From the NCBI GenBank assembly GCA_009914755.4, contig CP086569.2:48352001-48416000 (forward strand): a stretch of DNA of 64,000 nt. Reading direction: 5' to 3'. Made by a program: the position numbers and the translations under genes. Below the pieces are notes generated by a model. That model was not told the DNA's origin. It searched no databases and was given only the letters and a program-made list of their open reading frames with translations. Within the stretch, counting starts at the first letter, position 1, and each line of letters begins with the position of its first letter. Positions 1-64,000 of the stretch are shown one piece after another. The stretch is from the human T2T-CHM13v2.0 reference genome, Homo sapiens.

Positions 1-53
1 GGAATAAAATAGAATGAAAGAGAATCAAATGGAATTGAATCGAATGGAATCGA

Positions 54-29600: not shown

Positions 29601-30224
29601 GGAAAGGACTCGAATGGAAATCACTCGAATAGAATGCAATTTAATAAAATAGGACCAAATGTAATGGAATGGAATGGAAAGGAATCGAAACGAAAGGAAT
29701 GGAGACAGATGGAATGGAATGGAACAGAGAGCAATGGTATAGAATGGAATGGAATCATCTGGAATGGAATTGAATGGAATGGAATAATATGAAATGGAAT
29801 GGAATGGAATGGAATGGAATGCCCTTGAATTAAATGGACTGGAATGGAATGGACTCGAACAGAGTGGAATGGAAAGTGTTGAGATAGAATGGAATGGACT
29901 CGTTTGGAATGGTCTAGTAGGCAATGCAATCGACTGGCAGGGAATCAAAAGGAATGTAATCGAATGGATTGGACTGGAATGCAATGGACTCGAATAGATT
30001 GCAAACGGAATGCAAAGGAATGGAATGGAATAGTATGGAATGGAATGGAAAGGAATGGAGTGGAATAGACTAGAGTGGAATGGAATGGACTGGAAAGAAA
30101 TGGACTGGAATGGAACTTTCTTGAATGGACAGGAATCAAACGGAATGGAATGCAATGCAATCAAATGGCATGGAATAAAATAGAATGAAAGAGAATCAAA
30201 TGGAATTGAATCGAATGGAATCGA
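26681..30224 (+). repeat. HSat3 HOR unit 8 (3544 bp), subfamily 'a'
   Basis: 15-bp deletion at 27530/27531 ('aaaggaattgaatgg' missing; 'aatccaatcaaatggaatggagtagattgg'), 'gtcatagaatg' variant at 27656-27666, and a 10-bp deletion at 29592/29593. Confidence 0.75.
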
Positions 30225-33200: not shown

Positions 33201-33773
33201 GGATCAAATGTAATGGAATGGAATGGAAAGGAATCGAAACGAAAGGAATGGAGACAGATGGAATGGAATGGAACAGAGAGCAATGGTATAGAATGGAATG
33301 GAATCATCTGGAATGGAATTGAATGGAATGGAATAATATGAAATGGAATGGAATGGAATGGAATGGAATGCCCTTGAATTAAATGGACTGGAATGGAATG
33401 GACTCGAACAGAGTGGAATGGAAAGTGTTGAGATAGAATGGAATGGACTGGTTTGGAATGGTCTAGTATGCAATGCAATCGACTGGTAGGGAATCAAAAG
33501 GAATGTAATGGAATGGATTGGACTGGAATGCAATGGACTCGAATAGATTGGAAACGGAATGCAAAGGAATGGAATGGAATAGTATGGAATGGAATGGAAA
33601 GGAATGGAGTGGAATAGACTAGAGTGGAATGGAATGGACTGGAAAGCAATGGACTGGAATGGAACTTTCTTGAATGGACTGGAATCAAACGGAATGGAAT
33701 GCAATGCAATCAAATGGCATGGAATAAAATAGAATGAAAGAGAATCAAATGGAATTGAATCGAATGGAATCGA
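30225..33773 (+). repeat. HSat3 HOR unit 9 (3549 bp), subfamily 'b'
   Basis: Private variants 'cattttaatggaatgtcc' (31295-31312), 'caaaccaatgg' (31063-31073), 'ggaacggaacggactcg' (31184-31200). Confidence 0.75.
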
Positions 33774-36700: not shown

Positions 36701-37343
36701 AATGGAATGGAATCGAATGGAAAGGACTCGAATGGAAATCACTCGAATAGAATGCAATTTAATAAAATAGGATCAAATGTAATGGAATGGAATGGAAAGG
36801 AATCGAAACGAAAGGAATGGAGACAGATGGAATGGAATAGAACAGAGAGCAATGGTATAGAATGGAAAGGAATCATCTGGAATGGAATTGAATGGAATGG
36901 AATAATATGAAATGGAATGGAATGGAATGGAATGGAATGCCCTTGAATTAAATGGACTGGAATGGAATGGACTCGAACAGAGTGGAATGGAAAGTGTTGA
37001 GATAGAATGGAATGGACTCGTTTGGAATGGTCTAGTATGCAATGCAATCGACTGGCAGGGAATCAAAAGGAATGTAATCGAATGGATTGGACTGGAATGC
37101 AATGGACTCGAATAGATTGCAAACGGAATGCAAAGGAATGGAATGGAATAGTATGGAATGGAATGGAAAGGAATGGAGTGGAATAGACTAGACTGGAATG
37201 GAATGGACTGGAAAGCAATGGACTGGAATGGAACTTTCTTGAATGGACTGGAATCAAACGGAATGGAATGCAATGCAATCAAATGGCATGGAATAAAATA
37301 GAATGAAAGAGAATCAAATGGAATTGAATCGAATGGAATCGAA
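33774..37343 (+). repeat. HSat3 HOR unit 10 (3570 bp)
   Basis: Anchor motif at 33774 (no ORF call there because of the 'ggaagtgattgg' variant at 33901-33912). Confidence 0.7.
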
Positions 37344-40300
37344 TGGATTGGAAAGGAATAGAATGGAATGGAATGGAATGGACTAGAATGGAATGGATTC
37401 GAATGGAAGGCAAAGGAATGGAATCTATTGGAATGGACTGTAATGGAATGGAATGGAAGTGATTGGAATGGACTCGAATGGAATGGACTGCAATAGAAAG
37501 GATTCGAATGGAATGAAAAAGAATTGAATGGAATAGAACAGAATGGAATCAAATCGAATGAAATGGAATGGAATAGAAAGGAATGGTATGAAATGGAATG
37601 GAAAGGATTCGAATGGAATGCAATCGAATGGAATGGAATCGAACGGAATGGAATAAAATGGAAGAAAACTGGCAAGAAATGGAATGGAAATGAATGGAGT
37701 GTTATGGAACGGACTCAAAAGGAATTGAATGTAATAGAATGGAGTGGAGTGGACTCGAATATAATGGACTGGAATGGAATGAAATCACATGGAATGGGAA
37801 CGAATGGAATGGAATGGAAAGGAATGGAATCGAATGGAAAGGAATCGAATGGAAGGGAATGAAATTGAATCAACAGGAATGGAAGGGAATAGAATAGACG
37901 GTAATGGAATGGAATCGAATAGAATGGACACGAATGCTCAAATTGAATGGACTCGAATGGAATGGAAACGAAAGGAATGTCATCGAATGGAATTGAATCG
38001 ATTGGAATGAAATCGCATAGAATGGAGTGGAATCAAATGGAATTGAATCGAAAGGAAAGGAAGCGAATGGACTGAAATGAAATGGAATGGAATTGAATGG
38101 AAAGTAATGCAATGGAATAGAATGGAACGAAATTTCACGGAATGGAATCAAACTGAATGGAATCAAATCAATGGAATCCAATCAAATGGAATGGAGTAGA
38201 TTGGATTGGATGGGATTGGAATGAAATGTACTGGAAAGGGCTCGAATTTCATGAAACGGAATGGAATGAATTGGAACGGAATGGACTCGAATGGAATGGA
38301 ATGTCATAGAATGGCATCAAATGGAATGGCATCAAATGGAATGGAATCGAATGCAATGGAATGCTATGGAATGGAATGGAATGCACTTTAATGGAATGTC
38401 CTCTAATGGAATGGATTCGAGTGGAATGGAATCGAATATAATGGAGTCGAATGAAATGGAATTGAAAGGAATGGGATCGAATACAATGGAATATACTGGA
38501 ATGTAATCTAATGAACTCGAATGTAATTGACTGGAATGGAATGTACATGAATGGAATGTAATCGAATGGAAAGTAATCCAATGGAATAGAATCTAATGCA
38601 ATAAAATCGACTCAGATAGAGTAGAATGTAATGGAATGGAGTGCAGTGCAATGGAATGGAATGGAATGGAATGCAATGGAATGGAATGGAATGGAATGGA
38701 ATGGAATGGAATGGAATGGAATGGGATGGAATGGTATGGAATGGATGGTAATGGACTGGAGTGAAATGGACTGGAAAGGAATGGACTCAAATTGAAAGGG
38801 CTGGAAAGGAATGGAGTCAAATGGAATGGTCTGGAATGGAATGAACACGAAAGTAATGCAATCCAATAGAATGGAATCGAATGGCATGGAATATAATGAA
38901 ATGGAATCGAAGAGAATGGAAACAAATGGAATGGAATTGAATGGAATGGAATTGAATGGAATGGGAACGAATGGAGTGAAATTGTATGCAGTAGAAGGGA
39001 ATAGAATGGAATGCAAGCGAAAGGAAAGGAATGGATTGGAAAGGAATGGAATTCATTGGAATGGAAGGGAATGTAGTGTAATGGACAGGCCTGGAATAAA
39101 GTGGAATGCTACGGTCTCGAATGGAATAAAAATGTATGGAATGGAATGCAATGAAACGGAATCGAATGTCATAGAATGTAATGGAATGCAAAAAACTGGA
39201 ATCCAAAATCATTGACTGGAAAGGCTGGGTGTCGAAAGGAATTGACTCCAATGGAATGGAATCGAATGGAATGGAAGTGAATAGAATCGAACTAAATCGA
39301 ATGGAATGGAATTGATAGGAACGGAATGGAAAGGAATGCAATGATTTGGCACGGAATGGAATCGAATGGCATCGAACGGAATGGAATGGAATGCAATTGA
39401 ATGGAACGTATTAGAATGTAATGAACTTTAATGGAATGTACTCGAATGGATTCGACTGGAATGGAATGTTCTGGAAGTGAATGGACTCCAATGGAATGGA
39501 TTCAAAAGGAATGGAATCGTACGGAATGGAATCTAATGGAATGGAACTAAATGGAAATGAATCAAATTGAATAGCATGGAATTGAATTGAATGGAATCGA
39601 ATGCAATGGAATCTAATGAAACGGAAAGGAAAGGAATGGAATGGAATGGAATGGGCTGGAATGGAAAGGAATCGAAACGAATGGAATGGAATCGAACTGA
39701 CGAGACTGGAATGGAATGCACTGGAATGGAATGGAGTGTAATGGAAGGTTCTCGAAAAAAATGGAATGGAATGGAATGGAATTGAATGGAACGGAATAGA
39801 GTCAAATGGAATTGAATGGAATGGAATGGACTAGAGTGAAATGGAATCGAACCACAAGGAATGGACAGGAATAGAATGGTCTCGAATTGAATGGAATCGT
39901 ATGGAATGGCATCAAACGGAATGGAATGGACAGCCACGGAATGGAATGCACTCGAATGCAATGGAGTCGAAACTAATGGACTGGAATAGAATGGATTCGA
40001 CTGGTACGGACTCCAATGGAATGGAATCGAATGGAAGGGAATCGAACGGAATGGACTCGAAGGGAAAAGACTGCAATGGAAAGGTCTCGAATGGAATGGA
40101 AATTAATGGAATGGAATGGAATCGAATGAAATGGAGTCAAAAGGAATGGAATCGAATGGCAAGAAATCGAATGTAATGGAATCGCAAGGAATTGATGTGA
40201 ACGGAACGGAATGGAATGGAATCCAAAGGAATGGAATAGAATGGAATGGAATCGAATGGAAAGGACTCGAATGGAAATCACTCGAATAGAATGCAATTTA

Positions 40301-40881
40301 ATAAAATAGGATCAAATGTAATGGAATGGAATGGAAAGGAATCGAAACGAAAGGAATGGAGACAGATGGAATGGAATGGAACAGAGAGCAATGGTATAGA
40401 ATGGAATGGAATCATCAGGAATGGAATTGAATGGAATGGAATAATATGAAATGGAATGGAATGGAATGGAATGGAATGCCCTTGAATTAAATGGACTGGA
40501 ATGGAATGGACTCGAACAGAGTGGAATGGAAAGTGTTGAGATAGAATGGAATGGACTCGTTTGGAATGGTCTAGTATGCAATGCAATCGACTGGCAGGGA
40601 ATCAAAAGGAATGTAATGGAATGGATTGGACTGGAATGCAATGGACTCGAATAGATTGGAAACGGAATGCAAAGGAATGGAATGGAATAGTATGGAATGG
40701 AATGGAAAGGAATGGAGTGGAATAGACTAGAGTGGAATGGAATGGACTGGAAAGCAATAGACTGGAATGGAACTTTCTTGAATGGACTGGAATCAAACGG
40801 AATGGAATGCAATGCAATCAAATGGCATGGAATAAAATAGAATGAAAGAGAATCAAATGGAATTGAATCGAATGGAATCGA
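37344..40881 (+). repeat. HSat3 HOR unit 11 (3538 bp), subfamily 'a'
   Basis: Carries the same 15-bp deletion (38177/38178) and 'gtcatagaatg' variant as unit 8, plus a ~20-bp deletion at 37377/37378. Confidence 0.75.
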
Positions 40882-43800
40882 ATGGATTGGAAAGGAATAG
40901 AATGGAATGGAATGGAATTGACTCAAATGGAATGGACTAGAATGGAATGGATTCGAATGGAAGGCAAAGGAATGGAATCTATTGGAATGGACTGGAATGG
41001 AATGGAAGGGATTGGAATGGACTCGAATGGAATGGACTGCAATAGAAAGGATTCGAATGGAATGAAAAAGAATTGAATGGAATAGAACAGAATGGAATCA
41101 AATCGAATGAAATGGAATGGAATAGAAAGGAATGGAATGAAATGGAATGGAAAGGATTCGAATGGAATGCAATCGAATGGAATGGAATCGAACGGAATGG
41201 AATAAAATGGAAGAAAACTGGCAAGAAATGGAATCGAAATGAATGGAGTGTTATGGAACGGACTCAAAAGGAATTGAATGTAATAGAATGGAGTGGAGTG
41301 GACTCGAATATAATGGACTGGAATGGAATGAAATCACATGGAATGGGAACGAATGGAATGGAATGGAAAGGAATGGAATCGAATGGAAAGGAATCGAATG
41401 GAAGGGAATGAAATTGAATCAACAGGAATGGAAGGGAATAGAATAGACGGTAATGGAATGGACTCGAATTGAATGGACACGAATGCTCAAATTGAATGGA
41501 CAAGAATGGAATGGAAACGAAAGGAATGTCATCGAATGGAATTGAATCGATTGGAATGAAATCGCATAGAATGGAGTGGAATCAAATGGAATTGAATCGA
41601 AAGGAAAGGAAGCGAATGGACTGAAATGAAATGGAATGGAATTGAATGGAAAGTAATGCAATGGAATAGAATGGAACGAAATTTCACGGAATGGAATCAA
41701 ACTGAATGGAATCAAATCAATGGAATCTAATCAAATGGAATGGAAAGGAATTGAATGGAGTAGATTGGATTGGATGGGATTGGAATGAAATGTACTGGAA
41801 AGGACTCGAATTTCATGAAACGGAATGGAATGAATTGGAACGGAATGGACTCGAATGGAATGGAATGGCATCAAATGGAATGGCATCAAATGGAATGGAA
41901 TCGAATGCAATGGAATGCTATGGAATGGAATGGAATGCATTGGAATGGAATGTCCTCTAATGGAATGGATTCGAGTGGAATGGAATCGAATATAATGGAG
42001 TCGAATGAAATGGAATTGAAAAGAATGGGATCGAATACAATGGAATATACTGGAATGTAATGTAATGAACTCGAATGTAATTGACTGGAATGGAATGTAC
42101 ATGAATGGAATGTAATCGAATGGAAAGTAATCCAATGGAATAGAAACTAATGCAATAAAATCGACTCAAATAGAGTAGAATGTAATGGAATGGAGTGCAG
42201 TGCAATGGAATGGAATGGAATTGAATGCAATGGAATGGAATGGAATGTTATGGAATGGAATGGAATGGATTGGAATGGGATGGAATGGTATGGAATGGAT
42301 AGTAATGGACTGGAGTGAAATGGACTGGAAAGGAATGGACTCAAATTGAAAGGGCTCGAAAGGAATGGAGTCAAATGGAATAGTCTGGAATGGAATGAAC
42401 ACGAATGTAATGCAATCCAATAGAATGTAATCGAATGGCATGGAATATAAAGAAATGGATTCGAAGAGAATGGAAACAAATGGAATGGAATTGAATGGAA
42501 TGGAATTGAATGGAATGGGAACGAATGGAGTGAAATTGTATGCAGTAGAAGAGAATAGAATGGAATGCAAGCGAAAGGAAAGGAATGGATTGGAATGGAA
42601 TGGAATTCATTGGAATGGAAGGGAATGTAGTGTAATGGACAGGCCTGGAATAAAGTGGAATGCTACGGTCTCGAATGGAATAAAAATGTATGGAATGGAA
42701 TGCAATGAAACGGAATCGAATGTCATAGAATGTAATGGAATGCAACAAAATGGAATCCAAAATCATTGACTGGAAAGGCTGGGTGTCGAAAGGAATTGAC
42801 TCCAATGGAATGGAATCGAATGGAATGGAAGTGAATAGAATCGAACTAAATCGAATGGAATGGAATTGATAGGAACGGAATGGAGAGGAATGCAATGATT
42901 TGGCATGGAATGCAATCGAATGGCATCGAATGGAATGGAATGGAATGCAATGGAATGGAATGTATTGGAATGTAATGAACTTTAATGGAATGTACTCGAA
43001 TGGATTCGACTGGAATGGAATGTTCTGGAAGTGAATGGACTCCAATGGAATGGATTCCAAAGGAATGGAATCGTACGGAATGGAATCTAATGGAATGGAA
43101 TTAAATGGAAATGAATCAAATTGAATAGCACGGAATTGAATTGAATGGAATCGAATGCAATGGAATCTAATGAAACGGAAAGGAAAGGAATGGAATGGAA
43201 TGGAATGGGCTGGAATGGAAAGGAATCGAAACGAATGGAATGGAATCGAACTGAAGAGACTGGAATGGAATGCACTGGAATGGAAGGGAGTGTAATGGAA
43301 GGTTCTCGAAAAAAATGGAATCGAATGGAATGGAATTGAATGGAACGGAATAGAGTCGAATGGAATTGAATGGAATGGAATGGACTAGAGTGAAATGGAA
43401 TCGAACCACAAGGAATGGACAGGAATAGAATGGTCTCGAATTGAATGGAATCGTATGGAATGGCATCAAACGGAATGGAATGGACAGCCACGGAATGGAA
43501 TGCACTCGAATGCAATGGAGTCGAAACTAATGGACTGGAATAGAATGGACTCGACTGGTACGGACTCCAATGGAATGGAATCGAATGGAAGGGAATCGAA
43601 CGGAATGGACTCGAAGGGAAAAGACTGCAATGGAAAGGTCTCGAATGGAATGGAAATTAATGGAATGGAATGGAATCGAATGAAATGGAGTCAAAAGGAA
43701 TGGAATCGAATGGCAAGAAATCGAATGTAATGGAATCGCAAGGAATTGATGTGAACGGAACGGAATGGAATGGAATCCAAAGGAATGGAATAGAATGGAA

Positions 43801-44430
43801 TGGAATCGAATGGAAAGGACTCGAATGGAAATCACTCGAATAGAATGCAATTTAATAAAATAGGATCAAATGTAATGGAATGGAATGGAAAGGAATCGAA
43901 ACGAAAGGAATGGAGACAGATGGAATGGAATGGAACAGAGAGCAATGGTATAGAATGGAATGGAATCATCTGGAATGGAATTGAATGGAATGGAATAATA
44001 TGAAATGGAATGGAATGGAATGGAATGCCCTTGAATTAAATGGACTGGAATGGAATGGACTCGAACAGAGTGGAATGGAAAGTGTTGAGATAGAATGGAA
44101 TGGACTCGTTTGGAATGGTCTAGTAGGCAATGCAATCGACTGGCAGGGAATCAAAAGGAATGTAATGGAATGGATTGGACTGGAATGCAATGGACTCGAA
44201 TAGATTGGAAACGGAATGCAAAGGAATGGAATGGAATAGTATGGAATGGAATGGAAAGGAATGCAGTGGAATAGACTAGAGTGGAATGGAATGGACTGGA
44301 AAGCAATGGACTGGAATGGAACTTTATTGAATGGACTGGAATCAAACGGAATGGAATGCAATGCAATCAAATGGCATGGAATAAAATAGAATGAAAGAGA
44401 ATCAAATGGAATTGAATCAAATGGAATCGA
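40882..44430 (+). repeat. HSat3 HOR unit 12 (3549 bp), subfamily 'd'
   Basis: 'ttgaaaagaatggg' (42015-42028), 'agaaactaatgcaat' (42140-42154), 'ctcaaatagag'. 5-bp deletion at 40994/40995 and 10-bp deletion at 41867/41868. Confidence 0.75.
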
Positions 44431-47400
44431 ATGGATTGGAAAGGAATAGAATGGAATGGAATGGAATTGACTCAAATGGAATGGACTAGAATGGAATGGA
44501 TTCGAATGGAAGGCAAAGGAATGGAATCTATTGGAATGGACTGTAATGGAATGGAATGGAAGGGATTGGAATGGACTCGAATGGAATGGACTGCAATAGA
44601 AAGGATTCGAATGGAATGAAAAAGAATTGAATGGAATAGAACAGAATGGAATCAAATCGAATGAAATGGAATGGAATAGAAAGGAATGGAATGAAATGGA
44701 ATGGAAAGGATTCGAATGGAATGCAATCGAATGGAATGGAATCGAACGGAATGGAATAAAATGGAAGAAAACTGGCAAGAAATGGAATCGAAATGAATGG
44801 AGTGTTATGGAACGGACTCAAAAGGAATTGAATGTAATAGAATGGAGTGGAGTGGACTCGAATATAATGGACTGGAATGGAATGAAATCACATGGAATGG
44901 GAACGAATGGAATGGAATGGAAAGGAATGGAATCGAATGGAAAGGAATCGAATGGAAGGGAATGAAATTGAATCAACAGGAATGGAAGAGAATAGAATAG
45001 ACGGTAATGGAATGGACTCGAATAGAATGGACACGAATGCTCAAATTGAATGGACTCGAATGGAATGGAAACGAAAGGAATGTCATCGAATGGAATTGAA
45101 TCGATTGGAATGAAATCGCATAGAATGGAGTGGAATCAAATGGAATTGAATCGAAAGGAAAGGAAGCGAATGGACTGAAATGAAATGGAATGGAATTGAA
45201 TGGAAAGTAATGCAATGGAATAGAATGGAACGAAATTTCACGGAATGGAATCAAACTGAATGGAATCAAACCAATGGAATCAAATCAAATGGAATGGAAA
45301 GGAATTGAATGGAGTAGATTGGATTGGATGGGATTGGAATGAAATGTACTGGAAAGGACTCGAATTTCATGAAACGGAATGGAATGAATTGGAACGGAAC
45401 GGACTCGAATGGAATGGAATGTCATGGAATGGCATCAAATGGAATGGCATCAAATGGAATGGAATCGAATGCAATGGAATGCTATGGAATGGAATGGAAT
45501 GCATTTTAATGGAATGTCCTCTAATGGAATGGATTCGAGTGGAATGGAATCGAATATAATGGAGTCGAATGAAATGGAATTGAAAGGAATGGGATCGAAT
45601 ACAATGGAATATACTGGAATGTAATGTAATGAACTCGAATGTAATTGACTGGAATGGAATGTACATGAATGGAATGTAATCGAATGGAAAGTAATCCAAT
45701 GGAATAGAATCTAATGCAATAAAATCGACTCAGATAGAGTAGAATGTAATGGAATGGAGTGCAGTGCAATGGAATGGAATGGAATGGAATGCAATGGAAT
45801 GGAATGGAATGGAATGGAATGGAATGGAATGGAATGGTGTGGAATGGATAGTAATGGACTGGAGTGAAATGGACTGGAAAGGAATGGACTCAAATTGAAT
45901 GGGCTCGAAAGGAATGGAGTCAAATGGAATGGTCTGGAATGGAATGAACACGAATGTAATGCAATCCAATAGAATGGAATCGAATGGCATGGAATATAAA
46001 GAAATGGAATCGAAGAGAATGGAAACAAATGGAATGGAATTGAGTGGAATGGAATTGAATGGAATGGGAAGGAATGGAGTGAAATTGTATGCAGTAGAAG
46101 AGAATAGAATGGAATGCAAGCGAAAGGAAAGGAATGGATTGGAATGGAATGGAATTCATTGGTATGGAAGGGAATGTAGTGTAATGGACAGGCCTGGAAT
46201 AAAGTGGAATGCTACGGTCTCGAATGGAATAAAAATGTATGGAATGGAATGCAATGAAACGGAATCGAATGTCATAGAATGTAATGGAATGCAACAAAAT
46301 GGAATCCAAAATCATTGACTGGAAAGGCTGGGTGTCGAAAGGAATTGACTCCAATGGAATGGAATCGAATGGAATGGAAGTGAATAGAATCGAACTAAAT
46401 CGAATGGAATGGAATTGATAGGAACGGAATGGAAAGGAATGCAATGATTTGGCATGGAATGGAATCGAATGGCATCGAATGGAATGGAATGGAATGCAAT
46501 GGAATGGAATGTATTAGAATGTAATGAACTTTAATGGAATGTACTCGAATGGATTCGACTGGAATGGAATGTTCTGGAAGTGAATGGACTCCAATGGAAT
46601 GGATTCAAAAGGAATGGAATCGTACGGAATGGAATCTAATGGAATGGAATTAAATGGAAATGAATCAAATTGAATAGCACGGAATTGAATTGAATGGAAT
46701 GGAATGCAATGGAATCTAATGAAACGGAAAGGAAAGGAATGGAATGGAATGGAATGGGCTGGAATGGAAAGGAATCGAAACGAATGGAATGGAATCGAAC
46801 TGAAGAGACTGGAATGGAATGCACTGGAATGGAAGGGAGTGTAATGGAAGGTTCTCGAAAAAAATGGAATGGAATGGAATGGAATTGAATGGAACGGAAT
46901 AGAGTCGAATGGAATTGAATGGAATGGAATGGACTAGAGTGAAATGGAATCGAACCACAAGGAATGGACAGGAATAGAATGGTCTCGAATTGAATGGAAT
47001 CGTATGGAATGGCATCAAACTGAATGGAATTGACAGCCACGGAATAGAATGCACTCGAATGCAATGGAGTCGAAACTAATGGACTGGAATAGAATGGACT
47101 CGACTGGTACGGACTCCAATGGAATGGAATCGAATGGAAGGGAATCGAACGGAATGAACTCGAAGGGACAAGACTGCAATGGAAAGGTCTCGAATGGAAT
47201 GGAAATTAATGGAATGGAATGGAATCGAATGAAATGGAGTCAAAAGGAATGGAATCGAATGGCAAGAAATCGAATGTAATGGAATCGCAAGGAATTGATG
47301 TGAACGGAACGGAATGGAATGGAATCCAAAGGAATGGAATAGAATGGAATGGAATCGAATGGAAAGGACTCGAATGGAAATCACTCGAATAGAATGCAAT

Positions 47401-47984
47401 TTAATAAAATAGAATCAAATGTAATGGAATGGAATGGAAAGGAATCGAAACGAAAGGAATGGAGACAGATGGAATGGAATGGAACAGAGAGCAATGGTAT
47501 AGAATGGAATGGAATCATCTGGAATGGAATTGAATGGAATGGAATAATATGAAATGGAATGGAATGGAATGGAATGGAATGCCCTTGAATTAAATGGACT
47601 GGAATGGAATGGACTCGAACAGAGTGGAATGGAAAGTGTTGAGATAGAATGGAATGGACTCCTTTGGAATGGTTTAGTATGCAATGCAATCGACTGGTAG
47701 GGAATCAAAAGGAATGTAATCGAATGGATTGGACTGGAATGCAATGGACTCGAATAGATTGGAAACGGAATGCAAAGGAATGGAATGGAATAGTATGGAA
47801 TGGAATGGAAAGGAATGGAGTGGAATAGACTAGAGTGGAATGGAATGGACTGGAAAGCAATGGACTGGAATGGAACTTTCTTGAATGGACTGGAATCAAA
47901 CGGAATGGAATGCAATGCAATCAAATGGCATGGAATAAAATAGAATGAAAGAGAATCAAATGGAATTGAATCGAATGGAATCGA
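44431..47984 (+). repeat. HSat3 HOR unit 13 (3554 bp), subfamily 'b'
   Basis: Shares 'cattttaatggaatgtcc' (45492-45509), 'caaaccaatgg' (45269-45279), 'ggaacggaacggactcg' (45390-45406) with unit 9. Confidence 0.75.
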
Positions 47985-50900
47985 ATGGATTGGAAAGGAA
48001 TAGAATGGAATGGAATGGAATTGACTCAAATGGAATGGACTAGAATGGAATGGATTCGAATGGAAGGCAAAGGAATGGAATCTATTGGAATGGACTGTAA
48101 TGGAATGGAATGGAAGGGATTGGAATGGACTCGAATGGAATGGACTGCAATAGAAAGGATTCGAATGGAATGAAAAAGAATTGAATGGAATAGAACAGAA
48201 TGGAATCAAATCGAATGAAATGGAATGGAATAGAAAGAATGGAATGAAATGGAATGGAAAGGATTCGAATGGAATGCAATCGAATGGAATGGAATCGAAC
48301 GGAATGGAATAAAATGGAAGAAAACTGGCAAGAAATGGAATCGAAATGAATGGAGTGTTATGGAACGGACTCAAAAGGAATTGAATGTAATAGAATGGAG
48401 TGGAGTGGACTCGAATATAATGGACTGGAATGGAATGAAATCACATGGAATGGGAACGAATGGAATGGAATGGAAAGGAATGGAATCGAATGGAAAGGAA
48501 TCGAATGGAAGGGAATGAAATTGAATCAACAGGAATGGAAGGGAATAGAATAGACGGTAATGGAATGGACTCGAATAGAATGGACACGAATGCTCAAATT
48601 GAATGGACTCGAATGGAATGGAAACGAAAGGAATGTCATCGAATGGAATTGAATCGATTGGAATGAAATCGCATAGAATGGAGTGGAATCAAATGGAATT
48701 GAATCGAAAGGAAAGGAAGCGAATGGACTGAAATGAAATGGAATGGAATTGAATGGAAAGTAATGCAATGGAATAGAATGGAACGAAATTTCACGGAATG
48801 GAATCAAACTGAATGGAATCAAATCAATGGAATCTAATCAAATGGAATGGAAAGGAATTGAATGGAGTAGATTGGATTGGATGGGATTGGAATGAAATGT
48901 ACTGGAAAGGACTCGAATTTCATGAAACGGAATGGAATGAATTGGAACGGAATGGACTCGAATGGAATGGAATGTCATGGAATGGCATCAAATGGAATGG
49001 CATCAAATGGAATGGAATCGAATGCAATGGAATGCTATGGAATGGAATGGAATGCATTGGAATGGAATGTCCTCTAATGGAATGGATTCGAGTGGAATGG
49101 AATCGAATATAATGGAGTCGAATGAAATGGAATTGAAAAGAATGGGATCGAATACAATGGAATATACTGGAATGTAATGTAATGAACTCGAATGTAATTG
49201 ACTGGAATGGAATGTACATGAATGGAATGTAATCGAATGGAAAGTAATCCAATGGAATAGAAACTAATGCAATAAAATCGACTCAAATAGAGTAGAATGT
49301 AATGGAATGGAGTGCAGTGCAATGGAATGGAATGGAATGGAATGCAATGGAATGGAATGGATTGGAATGGAATGGGATGGAATGGTGTGGAATGGATAGT
49401 AATGGACTGGTGTGAAATGGACTGGAAAGGAATGGACTCAAATTGAAAGGGCTCTAAAGGAATGGAGTCAAATGGAATGGTCTGGAATGGAATGAACACG
49501 AATGTAATGCAATCCAATAGAATGGAATCGAATGGCATGGAATATAAAGAAATGGAATCGAAGAGAATGGAAACAAATGGAATGGAATTGAATGGAATGG
49601 AATTGAATGGAATGGGAAGGAATGGAGTGAAATTGTATGCAGTATTAGAGAATAGAATGGAATGCAAGTGAAAGGAAAGGAATGGATTGGAATGGAATGG
49701 AATTCATTGGAATGGAAGGGAATGTAGTGTAATGGACAGGCCTGGAATAAAGTGGAATGCTACGGTCTCGAATGGAATAAAAATGTATGGAATGGAATGC
49801 AATGAAACGGAATCGAATGTCATAGAATGTAATGGAATGCAACAAAATGGAATCCAAAATCATTGACTGGAAAGGCTGGGTGTCGAAAGGAATTGACTCC
49901 AATGGAATGGAATCGAATGGAATGGAAGTGAATAGAATCGAACTAAATCGAATGGAATGGAATTGATAGGAACGGAATGGAAAGGAATGCAATGATTTGG
50001 CATGGAATGGAATCGAATGGCATCGAATGGAATGGAATGGAATGCAATGGAATGGAATGTATTAGAATGTAATGAACTTTAATGGAATGTACTCGAATGG
50101 ATTCGACTGGAATGGAATGTTCTGGAAGTGAATGGACTCCAATGGAATGGATTCAAAAGGAATGGAATCGTACGGAATGGAATCTAATGGAAGGGAATTA
50201 AATGGAAATGAATCAAATTGAATAGCACGGAATTGAATTGAATGGAATGGAATGCAATGGAATCTAATGAAACGGAAAGGAAAGGAATGGAATGGAATGG
50301 AATGGGCTGGAATGGAAAGGAATCGAAACGAATGGAATGGAATCGAACTGAAGAGACTGGAATGGAATGCACTGGAATGGAAGGGAGTGTAATGAAGGTT
50401 CTCGAAAAAAATGGAATCGAATGGAATGGAATTGAATGGAACGGAATAGAGTCGAATGGAATTGAATGGAATGGAATGGACTAGAGTGAAATGGAATCGA
50501 ACCACAAGGAATGGACAGGAATAGAATGGTCTCGAATTGAATGGAATCGTATGGAATGGCATCAAACGGAATGGAATGGACAGCCACGGAATGGAATGCA
50601 CTCGAATGCAATGGAGTCGAAACTAATGGACTGGAATAGAATGGACTCGACTGGTACGGACTCCAATGGAATGGAATCGAATGGAAGGGAATCGAACGGA
50701 ATGGACTCGAAGGGAAAAGACTGCAATGGAAAGGTCTCGAATGGAATGGAAATTAATGGAATGGAATGGAATCGAATGAAATGGAGTCAAAAGGAATGGA
50801 ATCGAATGGCAAGAAATCGAATGTAATGGAATCGCAAGGAATTGATGTGAACGGAACGGAATGGAATGGAATCCAAAGGAATGGAATAGAATGGAATGGA

Positions 50901-51532
50901 ATCGAATGGAAAGGACTCGAATGGAAATCACTCGAATAGAATGCAATTTAATAAAATAGGATCAAATGGAATGGAATGGAATGGAAAGGAATCGAAACGA
51001 AAGGAATGGAGACAGATGGAATGGAATGGAACAGAGAGCAATGGTATAGAATGGAATGGAATCATCTGGAATGGAATTGAATGGAATGGAATAATATGAA
51101 ATGGAATGGAATGGAATGGAATGGAATGCCCTTGAATTAAATGGACTGGAATGGAATGGACTCGAACAGAGTGGAATGGAAAGTGTTGAGATAGAATGGA
51201 ATGGACTCCTTTGGAATGGTGTAGTATGCAATGCAATCGACTGGCAGGGAATCAAAAGGAATGTAATGGAATGGATTGGACTGGAATGCAATGGACTCGA
51301 ATAGATTGGAAACGGAATGCAAAGGAATGGAATGGAATAGTATGGAATGGAATGGAAAGGAATGGAGTGGAATAGACTAGAGTGGAATGGAATGGACTGG
51401 AAAGCAATGGACTGGAATGGAACTTTCTTGAATGGACTGGAATCAAACGGAATGGAATGCAATGCAATCAAATGGCATGGAATAAAATAGAATGAAAGAG
51501 AATCAAATGGAATTGAATCGAATGGAATCGAA
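47985..51532 (+). repeat. HSat3 HOR unit 14 (3548 bp), subfamily 'd'
   Basis: Shares the subfamily-'d' variants with unit 12 (49131-49144, 49259-49273). Confidence 0.75.
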
Positions 51533-54500
51533 TGGATTGGAAAGGAATAGAATGGAATGGAATGGAATTGACTCAAATGGAATGGACTAGAATGGAATGG
51601 ATTCGAATGGAAGGCAAATGAATGGAATCTATTGGAATGGACTGTAATGGAATGGAATGGAAGGGATTGGAATGGACTCGAATGGAATGGACTGCAATAG
51701 AAAGGATTCGAATGGAATGAAAAAGAATTGAATGGAATAGAACAGAATGGAATCAAATCGAATGAAATGGAATGGAAGAGAAAGGAATGGAATGAAATGG
51801 AATGGAAAGGATTCGAATGGAATGCAATCGAATGGAATGGAATCGAACGGAATGGAATAAAATGGAAGAAAACTGGCAAGAAATGGAATCGAAATGAATG
51901 GAGTGTTATGGAACGGACTCAAAAGGAATTGAATGTAATAGAATGGAGTGGAGTGGACTCGAATATAATGGACTGGAATGGAATGAAATCACATGGAATG
52001 GGAACGAATGGAATGGAATGGAAAGGAATGGAATCGAATGGAAAGGAATCGAATGGAAGGGAATGAAATTGAATCAACAGGAATGGAAGGGAGTAGAATA
52101 GACGGTAATGGAATGGACTCGAATAGAATGGACACGAATGCTCAAATTGAATGGACTCGAATGGAATGGAAACGAAAGGAATGTCATCGAATGGAATTGA
52201 ATCGATTGGAATGAAATCGCATAGAATGGAGTGGAATCAAATGGAATTGAATCGAAAGGAAAGGAAGCGAATGGACTGAAATGAAATGGACTGGAATTGA
52301 ATGGAAAGTTATGTAATAGAAAAGAATGGAACGAAATTTCACGGAATGGAATCAAACTGAATGGAATCAAATCAATGGAATCAAATCAAATGGAATGGAA
52401 AGGAATTGAATGGAGTAGATTGGATTGGATGGGATTGGAATGAAATGTACTGGAAAGGACTCGAATTTCATGAAACGGAATGCAATGAATTGGAACGGAA
52501 CGGACTCGAATGGAATGGAATGTCATGGAATGGCATCAAATGGAATGGCATCAAATGGAATGGAATCGAATGCAATGGAATGCTATGGAATGGAATGGAA
52601 TGCATTGGAATGGAATGTCCTCTAATGGAATGGATTCGAGTGGAATGGAATCGAATATAATGGAGTCGAATGAAATGGAATTGAAAGGAATGGGATCGAA
52701 TACAATGGAATATACTGGAATGTAATGTAATGAACTCGAATGTAATTGACTGGAATGGAATGTACATGAATGGAATGTAATCGAATGGAAAGTAATCCAA
52801 TGGAATAGAATTTAATGCAATAAAATCGACTCAGATAGAGTAGAATGTAATGGAATGGAGTGCAGTGCCATGGAATGGAATGGAATGGAATGCAATGGAA
52901 TGGAATGGAATGCAATGGAATGGAATGGAATGGAATGGAATGGAATGGGATGGAATGGTGTGGAATGGATAGTAATGGACTGGAGTGAAATGGACTGGAA
53001 AGGAATGGACTCAAATTGAAAGGGCTCGAAAGGAATGGAGTCAAATGGAATGGTCTGGAATGGAATGAACACGAATGTAATGCAATCCAATAGAATGGAA
53101 TCGAATGGCATGGAATATAAAGAAATGGAATCGAAGAGAATGGAAACAAATGGAATGGAATTGAATGGAATGGAATTGAATGGAATGGGAACGAATGGAG
53201 TGAAATTGTATGCAGTAGAAGAGAATAGAATGGAATGCAAGCGAAAGGAAAGGAATGGATTGGAATGGAATGGAATTCATTGGAATGGAAGGGAATGTAG
53301 TGTAATGGACAGGCCTGGAATAAAGTGGAATGCTACGGTCTCGAATGGAATAAAAATGTATGGAATGGAATGCAATGAAACGGAATCGAATGTCATAGAA
53401 TGTAATGGAATGCAAAAAAATGGAATCCAAAATCATTGACTGGAAAGGCTGGGTGTCGAAAGGAATTGACTCCAATGGAATGGAATCGAATGGAATGGAA
53501 GTGAATAGAATCGAACTAAATCGAATGGAATGGAATTGATAGGAACGGAATGGAAAGGAATGCAATGATTTGGCATGGAATGCAATCGAATGGCATCGAA
53601 TGGAATGGAATGGAATGCAATGGAATGGAATGTATTAGAATGTAATGAACTTTAATGGAATGTACTCGAATGGATTCGACTGGAATGGAATGTTCTGGAA
53701 GTGAATGGACTCCAATGGAATGGATTCAAAAGGAATGGAATCGTACGGAATGGAATCTAATGGAATGGAATTAAATGGAAATGAATCAAATTGAATAGCA
53801 CGGAATTGAATTGAATGGAATCGAATGCAATGGAATCTAATGAAACGGAAAGGAAAGGAATGGAATGGAATGGAATGGGCTGGAATGGAAAGGAATCGAA
53901 ACGAATGGAATGGAATCGAACTGAAGAGACTGGAATGGAATGCACTGGAATGGAAGGGAGTGTAATGGAAGGTTCTCGAAAAAAATGGAATCGAATGGAA
54001 TGGAATTCAATGGAACGGAATAGAGTCGAATGGAATTGAATGGAATGGAATGGACTAGAGTGAAATGGAATCGAACCACAAGGAATGGACAGGAATAGAA
54101 TGGTCTCGAATTGAATGGAATCGTATGGAATGGCATCAAACGGAATGGAATGGACAGCCACGGAATGGAATGCACTCGAATGCAATGGAGTCGAAACTAA
54201 TGGACTGGAATAGAATGGACTCGACTGGTACGGACTCCAATGGAATGGAATCGAATGGAAGGGAATCGAACGGAATGGACTCGAAGGGAAAAGACTGCAA
54301 TGGAGAGGTCTCGAATGGAATGGAAATTAATGGAATGGAATGGAATCGAATGAAATGGAGTCAAAAGGAATGGAATCGAATGGCAAGAAATCGAATGTAA
54401 TGGAATCGCAAGGAATTGATGTGAACGGAACGGAATGGAATGGAATCCAAAGGAATGGAATAGAATGGAATGGAATCGAATGGAAAGGACTCGAATGGAA

Positions 54501-55100
54501 ATCACTCGAATAGAATGCAATTTAATAAAATAGGATCAAATGTAATGGAATGGAATGGAAAGGAATCGAAACGAAAGGAATGGAGACAGATGGAATGGAA
54601 TGGAACAGAGAGCAATGGTATAGAATGGAATGGAATCATCTGGAATGGAATTGAATGGAATGGAATAACATGAAATGGACTGGAATGGAATGGAATGCCC
54701 TTGAATTAAATGGACTGGAATGGAATGGACTCGAACAGAGTGGAATGGAAAGTGTTGAAATAGAATGGAATGGACTGGTTTGGAATGGTCTAGTATGCAA
54801 TGCAATCGACTGGCAGGGAATCAAAAGGAATGTAATCGAATGGATTGGACTGGAATGCAATGGACTCGAATAGATTGGAAACGGAATGCAAAGGAATGGA
54901 ATGGAATAGTATGGAATGGAATGGAAAGGAATGGAGTGGAATAGACTAGAGTGGAATGGAATGGACTCGAAAGCAATGGACTGGAATGGAACTTTCTTGA
55001 ATGGACTGGAATCAAACGGAATGGAATGCAATGCAATCAAATGGCATGGAATAAAATAGAATGAAAGAGAATCAAATGGAATTGAATCGAATGGAATCGA
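51533..55100 (+). repeat. HSat3 HOR unit 15 (3568 bp)
   Basis: Anchor motif at 51533 and 55101. Confidence 0.7.
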
Positions 55101-56366
55101 ATGGATTGGAAAGGAATAGAATGGAATGGAATGGAATTGACTCAAATGGAATGGACTAGAATGGAATGGATTCGAATGGAAGGCAAAGGAATGGAATCTA
55201 TTGGAATGGACTGTAATGGAATGGAATGGAAGGGATTGGAATGGACTCGAATGGAATGGACTGCAATAGAAAGGATTCGAATGGAATGAAAAAGAATTGA
55301 ATGGAATAGAACAGAATGGAATCAAATCGAATGAAATGGAATGGAATAGAAAGGAATGGAATGAAATGGAATGGAAAGGATTCGAATGGAATGCAATCGA
55401 ATGGAATGGAATCGAACGGAATGGAATAAAATGGAAGAAAACTGGCAAGAAATGGAATCGAAATGAATGGAGTGTTATGGAACGGACTCAAAAGGAATTG
55501 AATGTAATAGAATGGAGTGGAGTGGACTCGAATATAATGGACTGGAATGGAATGAAATCACATGGAATGGGAACGAATGGAATGGAATGGAAAGGAATGG
55601 AATCGAATGGAAAGGAATCGAATGGAAGGGAATGAAATTGAATCAACAGGAATGGAAGGGAATAGAATAGACGGTAATGGAATGGACTCGAATAGAATGG
55701 ACACGAATGCTGAAATTGAATGGACTCGAATGGAATGGAAACGAAAGGAATGTCATCGAATGGAATTGAATCGATTGGAATGAAATCGCATAGAATGGAG
55801 TGGAATCAAATGGAATTGAATCGAAAGGAAAGGAAGCGAATGGACTGAAATGAAATGGAATGGAATTGAATGGAAAGTAATGCAATGGAATAGAATGGAA
55901 CGAAATTTCACGGAATGGAATCAAACTGAATGGAATCAAATCAATGGAATCAAATCAAATGGAATGGAAAGGAATTGAATGGAGTAGATTGGATTGGATG
56001 GGATTGGAATGAAATGTACTGGAAAGGACTCGAATTTCATGAAACGGAATGGAATGAATTGGAACGGAATGGACTCGAATTGAATGGAATGTCATGGAAT
56101 GGCATCAAATGGAATGGCATCAAATGGAATGGAATCGAATGTAATGGAATGGAATGCATTGGAATGGAATGTCCTCTAATGGAATGGATTCGAGTGGAAT
56201 GGAATCGAATATAATGGAGTCGAATGAAATGGAATTGAAAGGAATGTGATCGAATACAATGGAATATACTGGAATGTAATGTAATGAACTCGAATGTATT
56301 TGACTGGAATGGAATGTACATGAATGGAATGTAATCGAATGGAAAGTAATCCAATGGAATAGAATC
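55101..56366 (+). repeat. HSat3 HOR unit 16, truncated after 1266 bp at the junction with the AT-rich array
   Basis: Colinear with the first ~1.27 kb of other units (including a 15-bp deletion at 56135/56136). It ends at '...ggaaagtaatccaatggaatagaatc', whereas complete units continue with 'taatgcaataaaatcgactcag'. Confidence 0.85.
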
Positions 56367-56372
56367 ATATAT
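56361..56372. other. HSat3 (DYZ1-type) to AT-rich (DYZ2-type) array junction, breakpoint between 56366 and 56367
   Basis: '...ccaatggaatagaatc|atatatgatatataatatatgtataatattgttttacatcctg'. The left side is phased to the HSat3 HOR. The right side is phased to an internal position of the AT-rich segment (equivalent to ~58019). Confidence 0.85.
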
Positions 56373-57116
56373 GATATATAATATATGTATAATATTGTTT
56401 TACATCCTGCATCTTATGTTATATATATTGTATAAAATATAATAATTGATTATATATACTTTTATAACATAATTTACATAAAATATCATAATATAATATA
56501 TATTATATTATTTCATATTACATAATATATATTACATATCACCCAATATAAGTAACATACATAATATTATAATGTAGATTATATTATGTTATATTAAATA
56601 TCATATATATTATGTATCATATATTCTATAATATATATTATACATTATATAATATGTATGTTGTCTATTATGTGATATATATAACTATACATATAATTAT
56701 ATTATTATACGTATAACTAGATAAACATGTAATTCTACATATTTTCATTTATAATATATAGAATTATATAATCATATATAATTATGTATATTCTATAAAA
56801 AATTATATCATTATATAAATTATAATATATAAAAATTATAATATGTACTACAAATATATATATTATATATCATATATGATATAGTACCTTTGTTATATAT
56901 CATAATACATATAAATGTGTATTATGTTATCTATAATTATATAATTTCATATATAAGTTGTATAATATGTATTATATATTATATATGTTATGTAATATAT
57001 ATAGTATATATAAGATGACACAGGATAAATATTATATACTATGACATATAAGATATATGAGGTTATATGTTTCATATAAGGCATAGCACATAACATGTAA
57101 TATATATCATATATAA

Positions 57117-57414
<298 letters not shown>

Positions 57415-57984
57415 ATATTTTTTAAATGAAAAAAAATTTCAAAGGTACTCTGCTTGGTACAATAATCAAATGTATAAACTGAGGAATAAAACATAACCAT
57501 GAAACCTATTTATAACTGCATATGGAAAATACAGAGGATAATTTTTTAAATAACATATTGTTAAAGCCTTAACTAGTAATTTGAAGAGTTGGCATTTGAA
57601 AGGCCAGTATGAATATACCTTCACAGCAGCAACACAGGTTCCCCATGAGAAAAAGCAAACTCAGGGAAAATAAAACCACAAAGGTTCAATCTCTTCTGAC
57701 CTTTGAAAGACACAGCACAGACAGTGGTCCTTAGGACGAAGAGCAGGAGACCCCTAATTCCGTCACCATGGCGATAGGGCATAAACATTGCTGGGTGAGG
57801 GCACAATCCACATTGTGAGGTCCAACTGCTGCCAGGAAGACAGGAGTGCTTTTACATAGACCGAAAGGTCATTGAAGGCTCAGAGTTTTGTTTCAAGAAC
57901 TGAATCCCAAGCCCACACGTTATTAGGCTGCGCTTCTTAAAACAAGTTATGAGATGGGAAAAAGGGCACCCACAAACATACGTA
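57415..57984. other. ~570-bp normal-GC, non-Alu module of the DYZ2-type unit; origin unrecognised
   Basis: Sequence 'atattttttaaatgaaaaaaaatttcaaaggtactctgcttggtacaataatcaaatg...ccatggcgatagggcataaacattgctgggtgagggcacaatccacattgtgagg...gggcacccacaaacatacg' recurs at 59836-60405 and 62254-62823. It is not pentameric, not AT-rich and not Alu. Confidence 0.6.
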
Positions 57985-62823
<4,839 letters not shown>

Positions 62824-64000
62824 TACATTATGTATATAATAATATACAGTATCATATATATAATATATATAACCTATGTATAATATGGTTTTACATCCTG
62901 CATCTTATATTATATATATTGTATAAAATATAATTATTGATAATATATAAATTTTATATTTATACAATATGACATATAGTATATATTATAATTTATGACA
63001 TATATAATATATGTTATATATCATATATAGAATATATTATACGGTTAATATACGTATTAAATATAAATTATACATTATATATATTATATATAATATTTCT
63101 GTTATATATAATACCCATTATGCATAATATATATATTATGTGTATGTTATATATAGTATAAAACAACATATAATAATATATAATTGTATATATAAAATGC
63201 GACATATAATATATATTATATTTTATGACATATGTTATAAATATTATATATTATATATAATACGTTGCATGTATAATACCTATATTAAATATATATTATA
63301 TGACTATGTTATTAATTACATGTCACATATGTTATATATTATATATTTTACATAGAATATACCGGTTACTTACAATATATAATATGTTACCTATAATGTA
63401 TAATATATTACATGTAAAATATAGAATGCAATATATTATGTGTAATTTATAATATACAATATGTGGAATGTGATATATATAACATATAATATATGATATA
63501 TGATATACAGTATATGATATATAATATAGAATATATGATACATAATATATATGGTATACAATATATATTTTATGATATGTATTCTATATGTTTTATATTC
63601 TGTTATATATAACTATTTGAAATTATATATAACTGTATAATATTTTATGTAAATATGTAATATAATATATAACTATGTAATATATTATATATAGCTATAT
63701 ATTATGTTATATATACTTTTATAACATAATTTACATAAAATATCATTATATAATATATATTATATTATTTCATATTACATAATATATATAACATATCACC
63801 CAATATAAGTAACATACATAATATTATAATATAGATTATATTATGTTATATTAAATATCATATATATCATGTATCATATATTCTATAATATATATTATAC
63901 ATTATATAATATGTATGTTGTCTATTATGTGATATATATAACTATATATATAATTACATTATTATACATATAACTAGATAAACATGTAATTCTGCATATT
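62824..64000. repeat. Partial DYZ2-type unit (AT-rich segment only, cut by the window end)
   Basis: Colinear with 57985-59160 and 60406-61585. Confidence 0.8.

What the first reader, a model, noticed from the sequence alone, without database searches (positions are those of the whole stretch)
56300..56460. Precise DYZ1->DYZ2 breakpoint: abrupt, mid-unit on both sides, no transposable element and no target-site duplication
The HSat3 HOR is cut 1266 bp into a unit, and the AT-rich array starts at an internal position of its own unit. No filler, duplicated flank or TE end is present. The two sides share only the short 'ata'/'gaat'-like low-complexity context. If this same breakpoint recurs at the other DYZ1->DYZ2 transitions along Yq12, the alternating pattern arose by amplifying one composite DYZ1+DYZ2 super-block rather than by independent invasions.
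Basis: seen in the sequence. Interest (0 to 1): 0.6.

Follow-up and report, generated by a model that had tools for sequence, protein, structure and literature searches.

The report
Compound DYZ1-to-DYZ2 satellite boundary, Yq12

Summary
The boundary is real and lies at 56364-56367. A 3.55-kb GGAAT-based array (DYZ1/HSat3) follows its own consensus up to base 56366. A 2.42-kb array made of an AT-rich part, an Alu fragment and a GC-rich part (DYZ2/HSat1B) follows it. No transposon end or poly-A lies within 750 bp, and the two sides share no long homology, only ATC (3 bp, 6% expected by chance).

The join is not a clean two-piece cut:
- The first 23 nt (56364-56386) are an exact reverse-complement copy of a site conserved in every DYZ2 unit of the window. 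Only 0.2% of AT-rich 23-mers have such an off-register copy.
- 56384-56450 are in-register DYZ2.
- At 56450/56451 the register jumps by 768-769 bp, so the first DYZ2 unit is 1,648 bp instead of 2,420.

The best reading is non-homologous joining with serial template switching, or a simple join patched later.

I could not test it, because every collection scan came back empty. Published assemblies already show multi-block tandem duplications in Yq12, so the super-block idea is plausible but not new. The compound signature would be a sharp marker for that test. Interest is low to moderate.

The parts
1..56366 (+). DYZ1 / HSat3 array. The GGAAT-type strand is on +. It holds 15 full units of 3529-3569 bp, one of which (8036-13314, 5,279 bp) also carries an extra 1,725-bp partial unit, plus partial units at both ends.
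   Evidence: k-mer periods 3539-3574. In-register BLAST anchors. Units differ from their consensus by 0.31-0.87%. HaeIII ladder.
56000..56366 (+). Last, truncated DYZ1 stretch. It matches the array consensus up to the final base. Over its 367 bases it has 4 substitutions (1.09%) and one 15-bp deletion.
   Evidence: MAFFT alignment against the 15 units.
56364..56366 (+). ATC, shared by the DYZ1 consensus (GAATC|TAATG), the in-register DYZ2 site (GTATC|ATATAT) and the inverted DYZ2 site (CTATATC|ATATATG). This is the 3-bp microhomology at the first join.
   Evidence: The chance of >=3 bp microhomology for random DYZ1/DYZ2 joins is 6%.
56364..56386 (+). 23 nt, ATCATATATGATATATAATATAT. An exact reverse-complement copy of a conserved DYZ2 site. 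Probably a templated patch or filler, of which 14-20 nt are not explained by the in-register sequence.
   Evidence: Exact reverse-complement copies at 56858-56880, 59279-59301 and 61697-61719. Only 3 of 1402 AT-rich 23-mers have any off-register exact copy.
56858..56880 (-). Nearest candidate template for the 23-nt patch. The same site is at 59279-59301 and 61697-61719 in the next units.
56384..56450 (+). In-register DYZ2 piece 'A', equivalent to 58036-58102 and 60457-60523. It overlaps the patch by TAT (56384-56386). 56387-56450 is 64/64 identical to unit 3.
56450..56451 (+). Second register jump. The sequence continues at the equivalent of 58872, 61292 and 63708, skipping 768-769 bp of the AT-rich part, with a 1-bp (T) overlap.
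   Evidence: Offsets change from 1652 to 2421. Sequences compared.
56364..58011 (+). First DYZ2 unit, shortened to 1,648 bp. Beyond the jump it is 97.9-98.2% identical to the next two units.
   Evidence: Hallast et al. report 93.7% of DYZ2 units at 2,420 bp and a range of 1,275-3,719 bp.
58012..64000 (+). Canonical DYZ2 units at 58012-60432 (2,421 bp) and 60433-62850 (2,418 bp), and a partial unit at 62851-64000. Each unit runs AT-rich part (~1,430 bp), Alu fragment (minus strand), GC-rich part.
57118..57408 (-). Diverged Alu fragment that is an integral part of the DYZ2 unit. Other copies are at 59539-59829 and 61957-62247. It lies 750 bp from the junction and is not a junction feature.
   Evidence: Weak mir-1268 (Alu-derived) Rfam hits lie inside it.

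Best explanation
This is one of the boundaries between a DYZ1 (HSat3) array and a DYZ2 (HSat1B) array in human Yq12 heterochromatin.

It was made by non-homologous joining of two unrelated satellites. Homologous exchange and transposition were not involved.

The join carries the marks of serial template switching. These are replication-based (MMBIR/FoSTeS-like) or polymerase-theta-type end joining. In order along the sequence:
1. DYZ1 ends at ...AATAGAATC.
2. Synthesis continues through an ATC microhomology on an inverted DYZ2 template for about 20 nt.
3. It switches through TAT to the forward DYZ2 unit near the start of its AT-rich part, for about 65 nt.
4. It switches again through a single T to a point 768-769 bp further along the same unit. 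From there the DYZ2 array runs normally.

Shown: the four segments, their coordinates, the microhomologies, and the absence of TE ends and of extended homology.

Inferred: that the three joins arose in one event, the enzymology, and that the junction is afterwards carried passively when Yq12 blocks are duplicated by unequal sister-chromatid exchange.
For: - DYZ1 identity: periods and HaeIII ladder.
- DYZ2 identity: 2,418-2,421-bp period and three-part composition, matching the published descriptions.
- DYZ1 follows its consensus to base 56366.
- All in-register DYZ1 alignments end at 56364-56366.
- 23-nt exact inverted copy, with a background of 0.2% for AT-rich 23-mers.
- The in-register alternative needs 4 mutational events in 14 bp. 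The next 64 bp are identical to unit 3 and unit-to-unit substitution divergence is about 1.3-2.1%.
- Register jump of 768-769 bp with a 1-bp overlap.
- The AT-rich part has no 768-bp subrepeat that could explain the jump by homologous slippage. Self-alignments reach about 66% at many different offsets.
- No TE end or poly-A near the join.
- Both edges are only mildly diverged. That fits a junction carried inside recently duplicated blocks, as reported for Yq12.
Against: - The 23-mer match was found after looking, in very AT-rich low-complexity sequence, so the 0.2% figure is an empirical background and not a formal P value.
- Only three canonical DYZ2 units are available. Units elsewhere in Yq12 might carry this 23-mer in register as an ordinary variant, and 1.6-kb short units exist elsewhere (range 1,275-3,719 bp).
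- All three pieces keep unit order, and two keep orientation. A simple join followed by a later templated patch and a later 768-bp deletion explains the sequence equally well.
- Ectopic gene conversion is frequent in Yq12: 29% of de novo SNVs match non-orthologous sites. That makes later patching plausible.
- 3-bp, 3-bp and 1-bp microhomologies are not beyond chance.
- No reads were available to verify the assembly.
Confidence: 0.6

Rival explanations
1. A simple two-piece non-homologous (NHEJ/MMEJ) join of DYZ1 to in-register DYZ2 at ATC. Two unrelated events followed in the first unit. One was a short templated or ectopic-conversion patch, primed on the 9-nt ATCATATAT shared with the inverted site. 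The other was a 768-bp deletion in the AT-rich part.
For: - The first 9 nt (ATCATATAT) fit the in-register site as well as the inverted site.
- Unit order is preserved across all pieces.
- The length of the AT-rich part varies among units in published assemblies (SD 383 bp).
- Non-orthologous identical matches for 29% of de novo Yq12 SNVs indicate frequent ectopic conversion.
Against: It requires three independent events within 90 bp of the array edge, while the remaining 1,561 bp of the unit shows only substitutions at about 2% and no indels.
Confidence: 0.3
2. This is the primordial edge of DYZ2. The DYZ2 unit was first formed by tandem duplication of a segment lying next to HSat3. The array would therefore start almost exactly where the unit 'closes', at the intersection of the GC-rich/HSATI part and the AT-rich part.
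For: The junction-equivalent position (58012) is 30 bp after ACATACG at 57976. That is the motif Hallast et al. place at the HSATI/AT-rich intersection. A random breakpoint would fall within +/-30 bp of that point in about 2.5% of cases. That figure is my own arithmetic, 60/2420.
Against: - The coincidence was noticed after the fact and there are several possible landmarks per unit.
- The inverted patch and the 768-bp skip are not predicted.
- The flanking units are only about 1-2% diverged, not ancient-looking.
- About 40 such boundaries exist per Y, so most cannot be primordial.
Confidence: 0.05
3. An assembly artefact: a chimeric join of a DYZ1 contig and a DYZ2 contig.
For: No reads could be examined. 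Yq12 is the hardest part of the Y to assemble.
Against: - The two sides share no overlap that an assembler could have used, only 3 bp.
- DYZ1/DYZ2 alternation, with dozens of boundaries, is established by several independent assemblies and by FISH.
- The internal structure is coherent on both sides.
Confidence: 0.03
4. Transposon- or retrotransposition-mediated insertion of DYZ2 into DYZ1.
For: DYZ2 carries an Alu fragment in every unit. Rhie et al. propose AluY-related seeding of HSat1B.
Against: - The nearest Alu sequence and its T9 tail are 750 bp from the join and are in phase with every other unit.
- There is no TE terminus or poly-A at the join.
- A target-site duplication could not be checked, because the far end is outside the window.
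Confidence: 0.02

Closest known systems
Alternating DYZ1 (HSat3A6) / DYZ2 (HSat1B) arrays of human Yq12 (Rhie et al. 2023 preprint 10.1101/2022.12.01.518724; Hallast et al. 2023 preprint 10.1101/2022.12.01.518658)
   Same: Unit periods, HaeIII ladder, three-part DYZ2 unit with a roughly 20% diverged Alu, and arrays abutting directly with no other sequence between them.
   Different: Nothing differs in kind. In the text I could search, those papers describe block sizes, divergence gradients and large duplications, and nucleotide-level breakpoints only for the two Yq12 inversions. They do not describe the base-level anatomy of ordinary DYZ1->DYZ2 boundaries. T2T-Y boundaries were 'manually refined' in the annotation.
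Complex breakpoints with short templated insertions and microhomology (MMBIR/FoSTeS, polymerase-theta end joining). General knowledge, not tested against a database.
   Same: Several joins within about 90 bp, microhomologies of 1-3 bp, a short inverted templated stretch copied from nearby sequence, and no long homology.
   Different: Here all the templates lie in one highly repeated AT-rich satellite unit. The source copy and the timing therefore cannot be identified, and later ectopic conversion is a live alternative.
Large tandem multi-block duplications and unequal sister-chromatid exchange in Yq12 (Rhie et al.; PMC13252187)
   Same: It fits the low divergence of both edge units here.
   Different: The window contains one junction only, so propagation is not observed here.
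Centromeric alpha-satellite array edges flanked by progressively diverged monomeric layers (general knowledge)
   Same: A boundary of a homogenised higher-order array.
   Different: There is no decayed or layered edge here. The last DYZ1 stretch is 1.09% from consensus, against 0.31-0.87% for the interior units. The first DYZ2 unit is about 98% identical to its neighbours.

Membership tests
DYZ1 / HSat3A6 | About 3.56-kb higher-order period built from GGAAT/CATTC pentamers | tested here: met
   Periods 3539-3574. TRF pentamer consensus AATGG up to 56365. 59 GGAAT per kb left of the join, 0 per kb in the next kb.
DYZ1 / HSat3A6 | One HaeIII (GGCC) site per unit, giving a ~3.56-kb ladder. 3,569 bp is the commonest fragment in Hallast et al. 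| tested here: met
   Spacings are 3549, 3559, 3569, 3569, 3539, 3554, 3549, 3548 and 3573. There is also one 1,725-bp fragment, and two multi-unit fragments where sites are lost (literature).
DYZ2 / HSat1B | About 2.42-kb period | tested here: met
   Periods 2418-2421. Units of 2,421 and 2,418 bp.
DYZ2 / HSat1B | Three-part unit: a >85% AT part of ~1.4 kb, a ~290-bp Alu about 20% diverged, and a more GC-rich part of ~570 bp | tested here: met
   Composition in 100-bp bins. Published values.
TE-mediated insertion junction | A TE terminus or poly-A tail at the join | tested here: not met
   The nearest Alu-derived sequence and T9 run are at 57117-57408. No homopolymer of >=8 lies closer.
TE-mediated insertion junction | Target-site duplication flanking the inserted block | not testable with these tools
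   The distal end of the DYZ2 block lies beyond base 64000. DYZ1 does not resume in the window.
Homologous (NAHR / unequal crossover) junction | Extended sequence identity between the two parents across the crossover | tested here: not met
   Only ATC is shared (5 of 6 with AG[A/T]ATC). The DYZ1 continuation and the sequence that precedes the DYZ2 site are unrelated.
Microhomology / template-switch junction (MMEJ, TMEJ, MMBIR) | Short (1-10 bp) microhomology at each join | tested here: inconclusive
   Overlaps of 3, 3 and 1 bp are present. However, >=3 bp is expected in 6% of random joins and >=1 bp in 48%.
Microhomology / template-switch junction (MMEJ, TMEJ, MMBIR) | A templated insertion traceable to nearby sequence | tested here: met
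   23-nt exact inverted copy of a site 471 bp downstream in the same unit, conserved in all units. Background is 0.2%. Caveats: the test was post hoc and only three reference units were available.
   The window holds a single transition. There were 0 matches to the junction in genome contigs, metagenome contigs and viral contigs. The protein routes were empty.

The most novel reading that the evidence does not exclude
The 87-bp compound signature is DYZ1 | ATC | 20-nt inverted patch | TAT | 65 nt of DYZ2 | T | DYZ2 +768 bp. It would be identical by descent at most or all DYZ1->DYZ2 boundaries of Yq12 and across Y haplogroups. That would prove that the whole alternating pattern descends from one complex template-switch event whose product was then amplified as a composite block. 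It would also provide a ready marker for dating and tracing those amplifications.
Probability: 0.3. Interest if true: 0.45.

Novelty: already known. Interest (0 to 1): 0.25.

Why it matters
[quoted passage not shown] Its DYZ1:DYZ2 unit ratio stays near 1:1 for reasons that are not understood.

Boundaries are the only positions in these arrays that carry unique sequence, so they are natural markers for reconstructing how the blocks were duplicated. A compound junction such as this one is very unlikely to arise twice. Its presence or absence at the other ~40 boundaries would therefore give a clean answer to 'one amplified composite block or many independent joins'.

By itself, one boundary of a known pair of satellites, with a non-homologous join, is ordinary. 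It adds a detail to a mechanism already proposed (unequal exchange and multi-block tandem duplication).

Tried and rejected
1. External copies of the junction.
- The exact 26-mer across the join gave 0 hits in genome contigs and in metagenome contigs.
- A gapped pattern tolerant of changes at the join (GGAAT N5-35 TGTATAATATTGTTTTACATCCTG) gave 0 hits in both.
- A DYZ2 24-mer gave 0 hits in viral contigs.

2. Protein route.
- The minus-strand ORF 56120-56368 starts exactly at the join. It has no exact record.
- It has only three weak relatives, from 423-573-bp NCBI contigs.
- Human satellite DNA is essentially absent from those collections.

3. Homologous slippage as the cause of the 768-bp skip. 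Self-alignment of the AT-rich part gives about 66% matches at many offsets and on both strands, with no 768-bp subrepeat. Rejected.

4. Cruciform or palindrome hotspot at the breakpoints. Inverted repeats are everywhere in the AT-rich part, and nothing specific marks the breakpoints. Not pursued.

5. Significance of the microhomology. 3 bp is within chance.

6. RNA families. Only sub-threshold mir-1268 hits inside the Alu parts. Irrelevant to the junction.

7. Literature.
- I found no description of ordinary DYZ1/DYZ2 boundaries at base level in the held text of Rhie 2023, Hallast 2023 (main text and supplement), Porubsky 2025 or the 2026 population preprint.
- The journal version of Rhie et al. 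is not held.
- The 2026 preprint has no held supplements.

Full report
**What the window is.**
- Bases 1-56366 are a tandem array with k-mer periods of 3539-3574 bp. It is built from GGAAT-type pentamers (TRF).
- It has one HaeIII site per unit, spaced 3539-3573 bp.
- Bases 56367-64000 are a tandem array with periods of 2418-2421 bp. Each unit has about 1.43 kb of >85% AT sequence, a 291-bp Alu fragment on the minus strand, and a GC-richer part.
- These features match the published descriptions of DYZ1/HSat3A6 and DYZ2/HSat1B of human Yq12 (Rhie et al. preprint; Hallast et al. preprint and supplement).
- Composition changes sharply in the 56001-57000 bin.

**Checking the observation.**
- BLAST of 56000-56900 against the window shows that every in-register DYZ1 alignment ends at 56364-56366.
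- In a multiple alignment of all units, the last partial unit follows the array consensus to ...CCAATGGAATAGAATC at 56366. The consensus goes on TAATGCAATAAAATCGAC.
- That continuation, and any GGAAT run, is absent from 56367-64000.
- On the other side, 56367 aligns to 58019, 60440 and 62858. With a gapped alignment, ATCATATAT at 56364-56372 equals 58012-58020, 60433-60441 and 62851-62859.
- The DYZ1 phase given as '1266' is approximate. The junction corresponds to position 1329 of the first unit in the window and lies 3,054 bp after the HaeIII site at 53312.
- No TE end is present. The closest Alu-derived sequence and its T9 run begin at 57117, 750 bp away, and recur in phase in every unit.

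The DYZ2 side is not one piece.
- High-identity in-register homology with the next units (offset 2420-2421, 97%) starts only near 56419-56451. The first ~85 bp match at offset 1652.
- Exact word matches put the change between 56450 and 56451. AAATATAATAATTGAT equals 58087-58102 and 60508-60523. TATATATACTTTTATAACAT equals 58872, 61292 and 63708. Only a T could belong to either side.
- So 768-769 bp of the AT-rich part are missing, and the first unit is 1,648 bp long instead of 2,418-2,421.
- The AT-rich part has no 768-bp internal repeat. Self-alignments reach about 66% at many offsets on both strands. This is therefore not a homologous slip.

**The first 23 nt.**
- The 19 nt right after ATC fit the in-register sequence poorly. 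They need a 4-bp deletion and three substitutions in 14 bp. The following 64 nt, by contrast, are identical to unit 3.
- The 23-mer 56364-56386 (ATCATATATGATATATAATATAT) is an exact reverse-complement copy of a site conserved in all DYZ2 units present: 56858-56880, 59279-59301 and 61697-61719.
- Only 3 of 1402 23-mers of the AT-rich part have any off-register exact copy on either strand.
- The patch overlaps the in-register piece by TAT (56384-56386).
- The anatomy is therefore: DYZ1 | ATC | ~20 nt inverted DYZ2 | TAT | DYZ2 58036-58102-equivalent | T | DYZ2 from 58872-equivalent onward.

**How it most likely arose.**
- No homology longer than 3 bp links the parents, and there is no TE.
- Three joins lie within 90 bp, one of them with a short inverted templated stretch. 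This is the pattern of template-switching repair (MMBIR/FoSTeS, or polymerase-theta end joining with templated insertion). That comparison rests on general knowledge and is an inference.
- The microhomologies do not exceed chance. >=3 bp is expected in 6% of random DYZ1/DYZ2 joins.
- I cannot separate a single complex event from a simple ATC join that was later patched and later lost 768 bp. A later patch could be primed on the 9 nt ATCATATAT that the forward and inverted sites share.
- Ectopic conversion is frequent in Yq12: 29% of de novo SNVs match non-orthologous sites. AT-rich length variants are also known.
- I give about 0.85 to 'non-homologous, non-TE join of the two arrays', and about 0.45 to 'one complex event'.

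**Age and context.**
- Neither edge is decayed. The last DYZ1 stretch differs from consensus by 1.09%, against 0.31-0.87% for the full units.
- The first DYZ2 unit is 97.9-98.2% identical to the next two, which are 98.7% identical to each other.
- This is only a mild version of the edge-divergence gradient that Hallast et al. describe. It fits a boundary carried inside recently duplicated blocks.

Whether the same breakpoint recurs at the other transitions could not be tested.
- The window has one transition.
- The junction 26-mer and a tolerant gapped pattern gave no match in the genome and metagenome collections.
- A DYZ2 word gave none in the viral collection.
- The ORF that begins at the join is not on record and has only three weak relatives.

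At the scale of blocks, the idea is already published.
- Rhie et al. describe iterative tandem duplications up to 5 Mb that span several DYZ1 and DYZ2 blocks, attributed to unequal exchange.
- A 2026 preprint reports that Yq12 length tracks the number of arrays (rho 0.78) and not their size.
- In the held texts I found nucleotide-level breakpoints only for the two Yq12 inversions. [quoted passage not shown]
- T2T-Y boundaries were manually refined for annotation.

**Verdict.**
- This is a real feature of a known kind, with an ordinary non-homologous mechanism.
- The useful addition is that the junction is compound. It therefore makes a much sharper identity-by-descent marker than a bare breakpoint phase.
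- The decisive test is simple on public assemblies but was impossible with the tools available here.
- Interest 0.25. Novelty: already known.

Noticed in passing
window 8691-10415: An extra 1,725-bp partial DYZ1 unit makes one 5,279-bp repeat (8036-13314). It also produces a 1,725-bp HaeIII fragment (8902-10627). The piece is 99.3% identical to 5132-6768 and about 97.9% identical to the next units.
   Followed up: partly
window 14196-31980: HaeIII (GGCC) sites are missing from three consecutive-phase DYZ1 units. This gives fragments of 10,691 bp (14196-24887, three units) and 7,093 bp (24887-31980, two units) in an otherwise regular ~3.56-kb ladder.
   Followed up: no
window 57976-58012 (also 60397, 62815): The DYZ2 position equivalent to the junction lies 30 bp after the ACATACG motif. 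Hallast et al. place that motif at the HSATI/AT-rich intersection where their consensus unit closes. The array therefore begins almost at the conventional unit boundary and not 'mid-unit'. This may be coincidence (about 2.5% for +/-30 bp).
   Followed up: partly
window 56142-56143 (between GAATGT and AATGGAATGG): The last partial DYZ1 unit lacks 15 bp (three pentamers) that are present in all 15 full units of the window. Unit 12 has a different 10-bp deletion about 55 bp upstream, in the same region of the unit.
   Followed up: no
window 56364-56386 and 56858-56880: The patch creates a perfect 23-bp inverted repeat with a 471-nt spacer inside the first DYZ2 unit. In canonical units the corresponding forward site is not complementary to the inverted site beyond 9 nt.
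   Followed up: partly
window 57221-57287, 59642-59708, 62060-62126 (minus strand): Sub-threshold Rfam mir-1268 matches (34-38 bits against a gathering score of 83) lie inside the Alu part of each DYZ2 unit. This is the expected Alu-derived similarity and not evidence for a miRNA gene.
   Followed up: no
proteins P0001-P0003 (NCBI, contigs of 423-573 bp): The only database relatives of the DYZ1 ORF are three 90-124-aa 'proteins' from very short NCBI contigs. They mix HSat3-type peptides (IPFHS/MEWNG runs) with what look to me like Alu-type peptides. They are probably human repeat contamination in deposited assemblies, as Rhie et al. report for HSat1B/HSat3.
   Followed up: no
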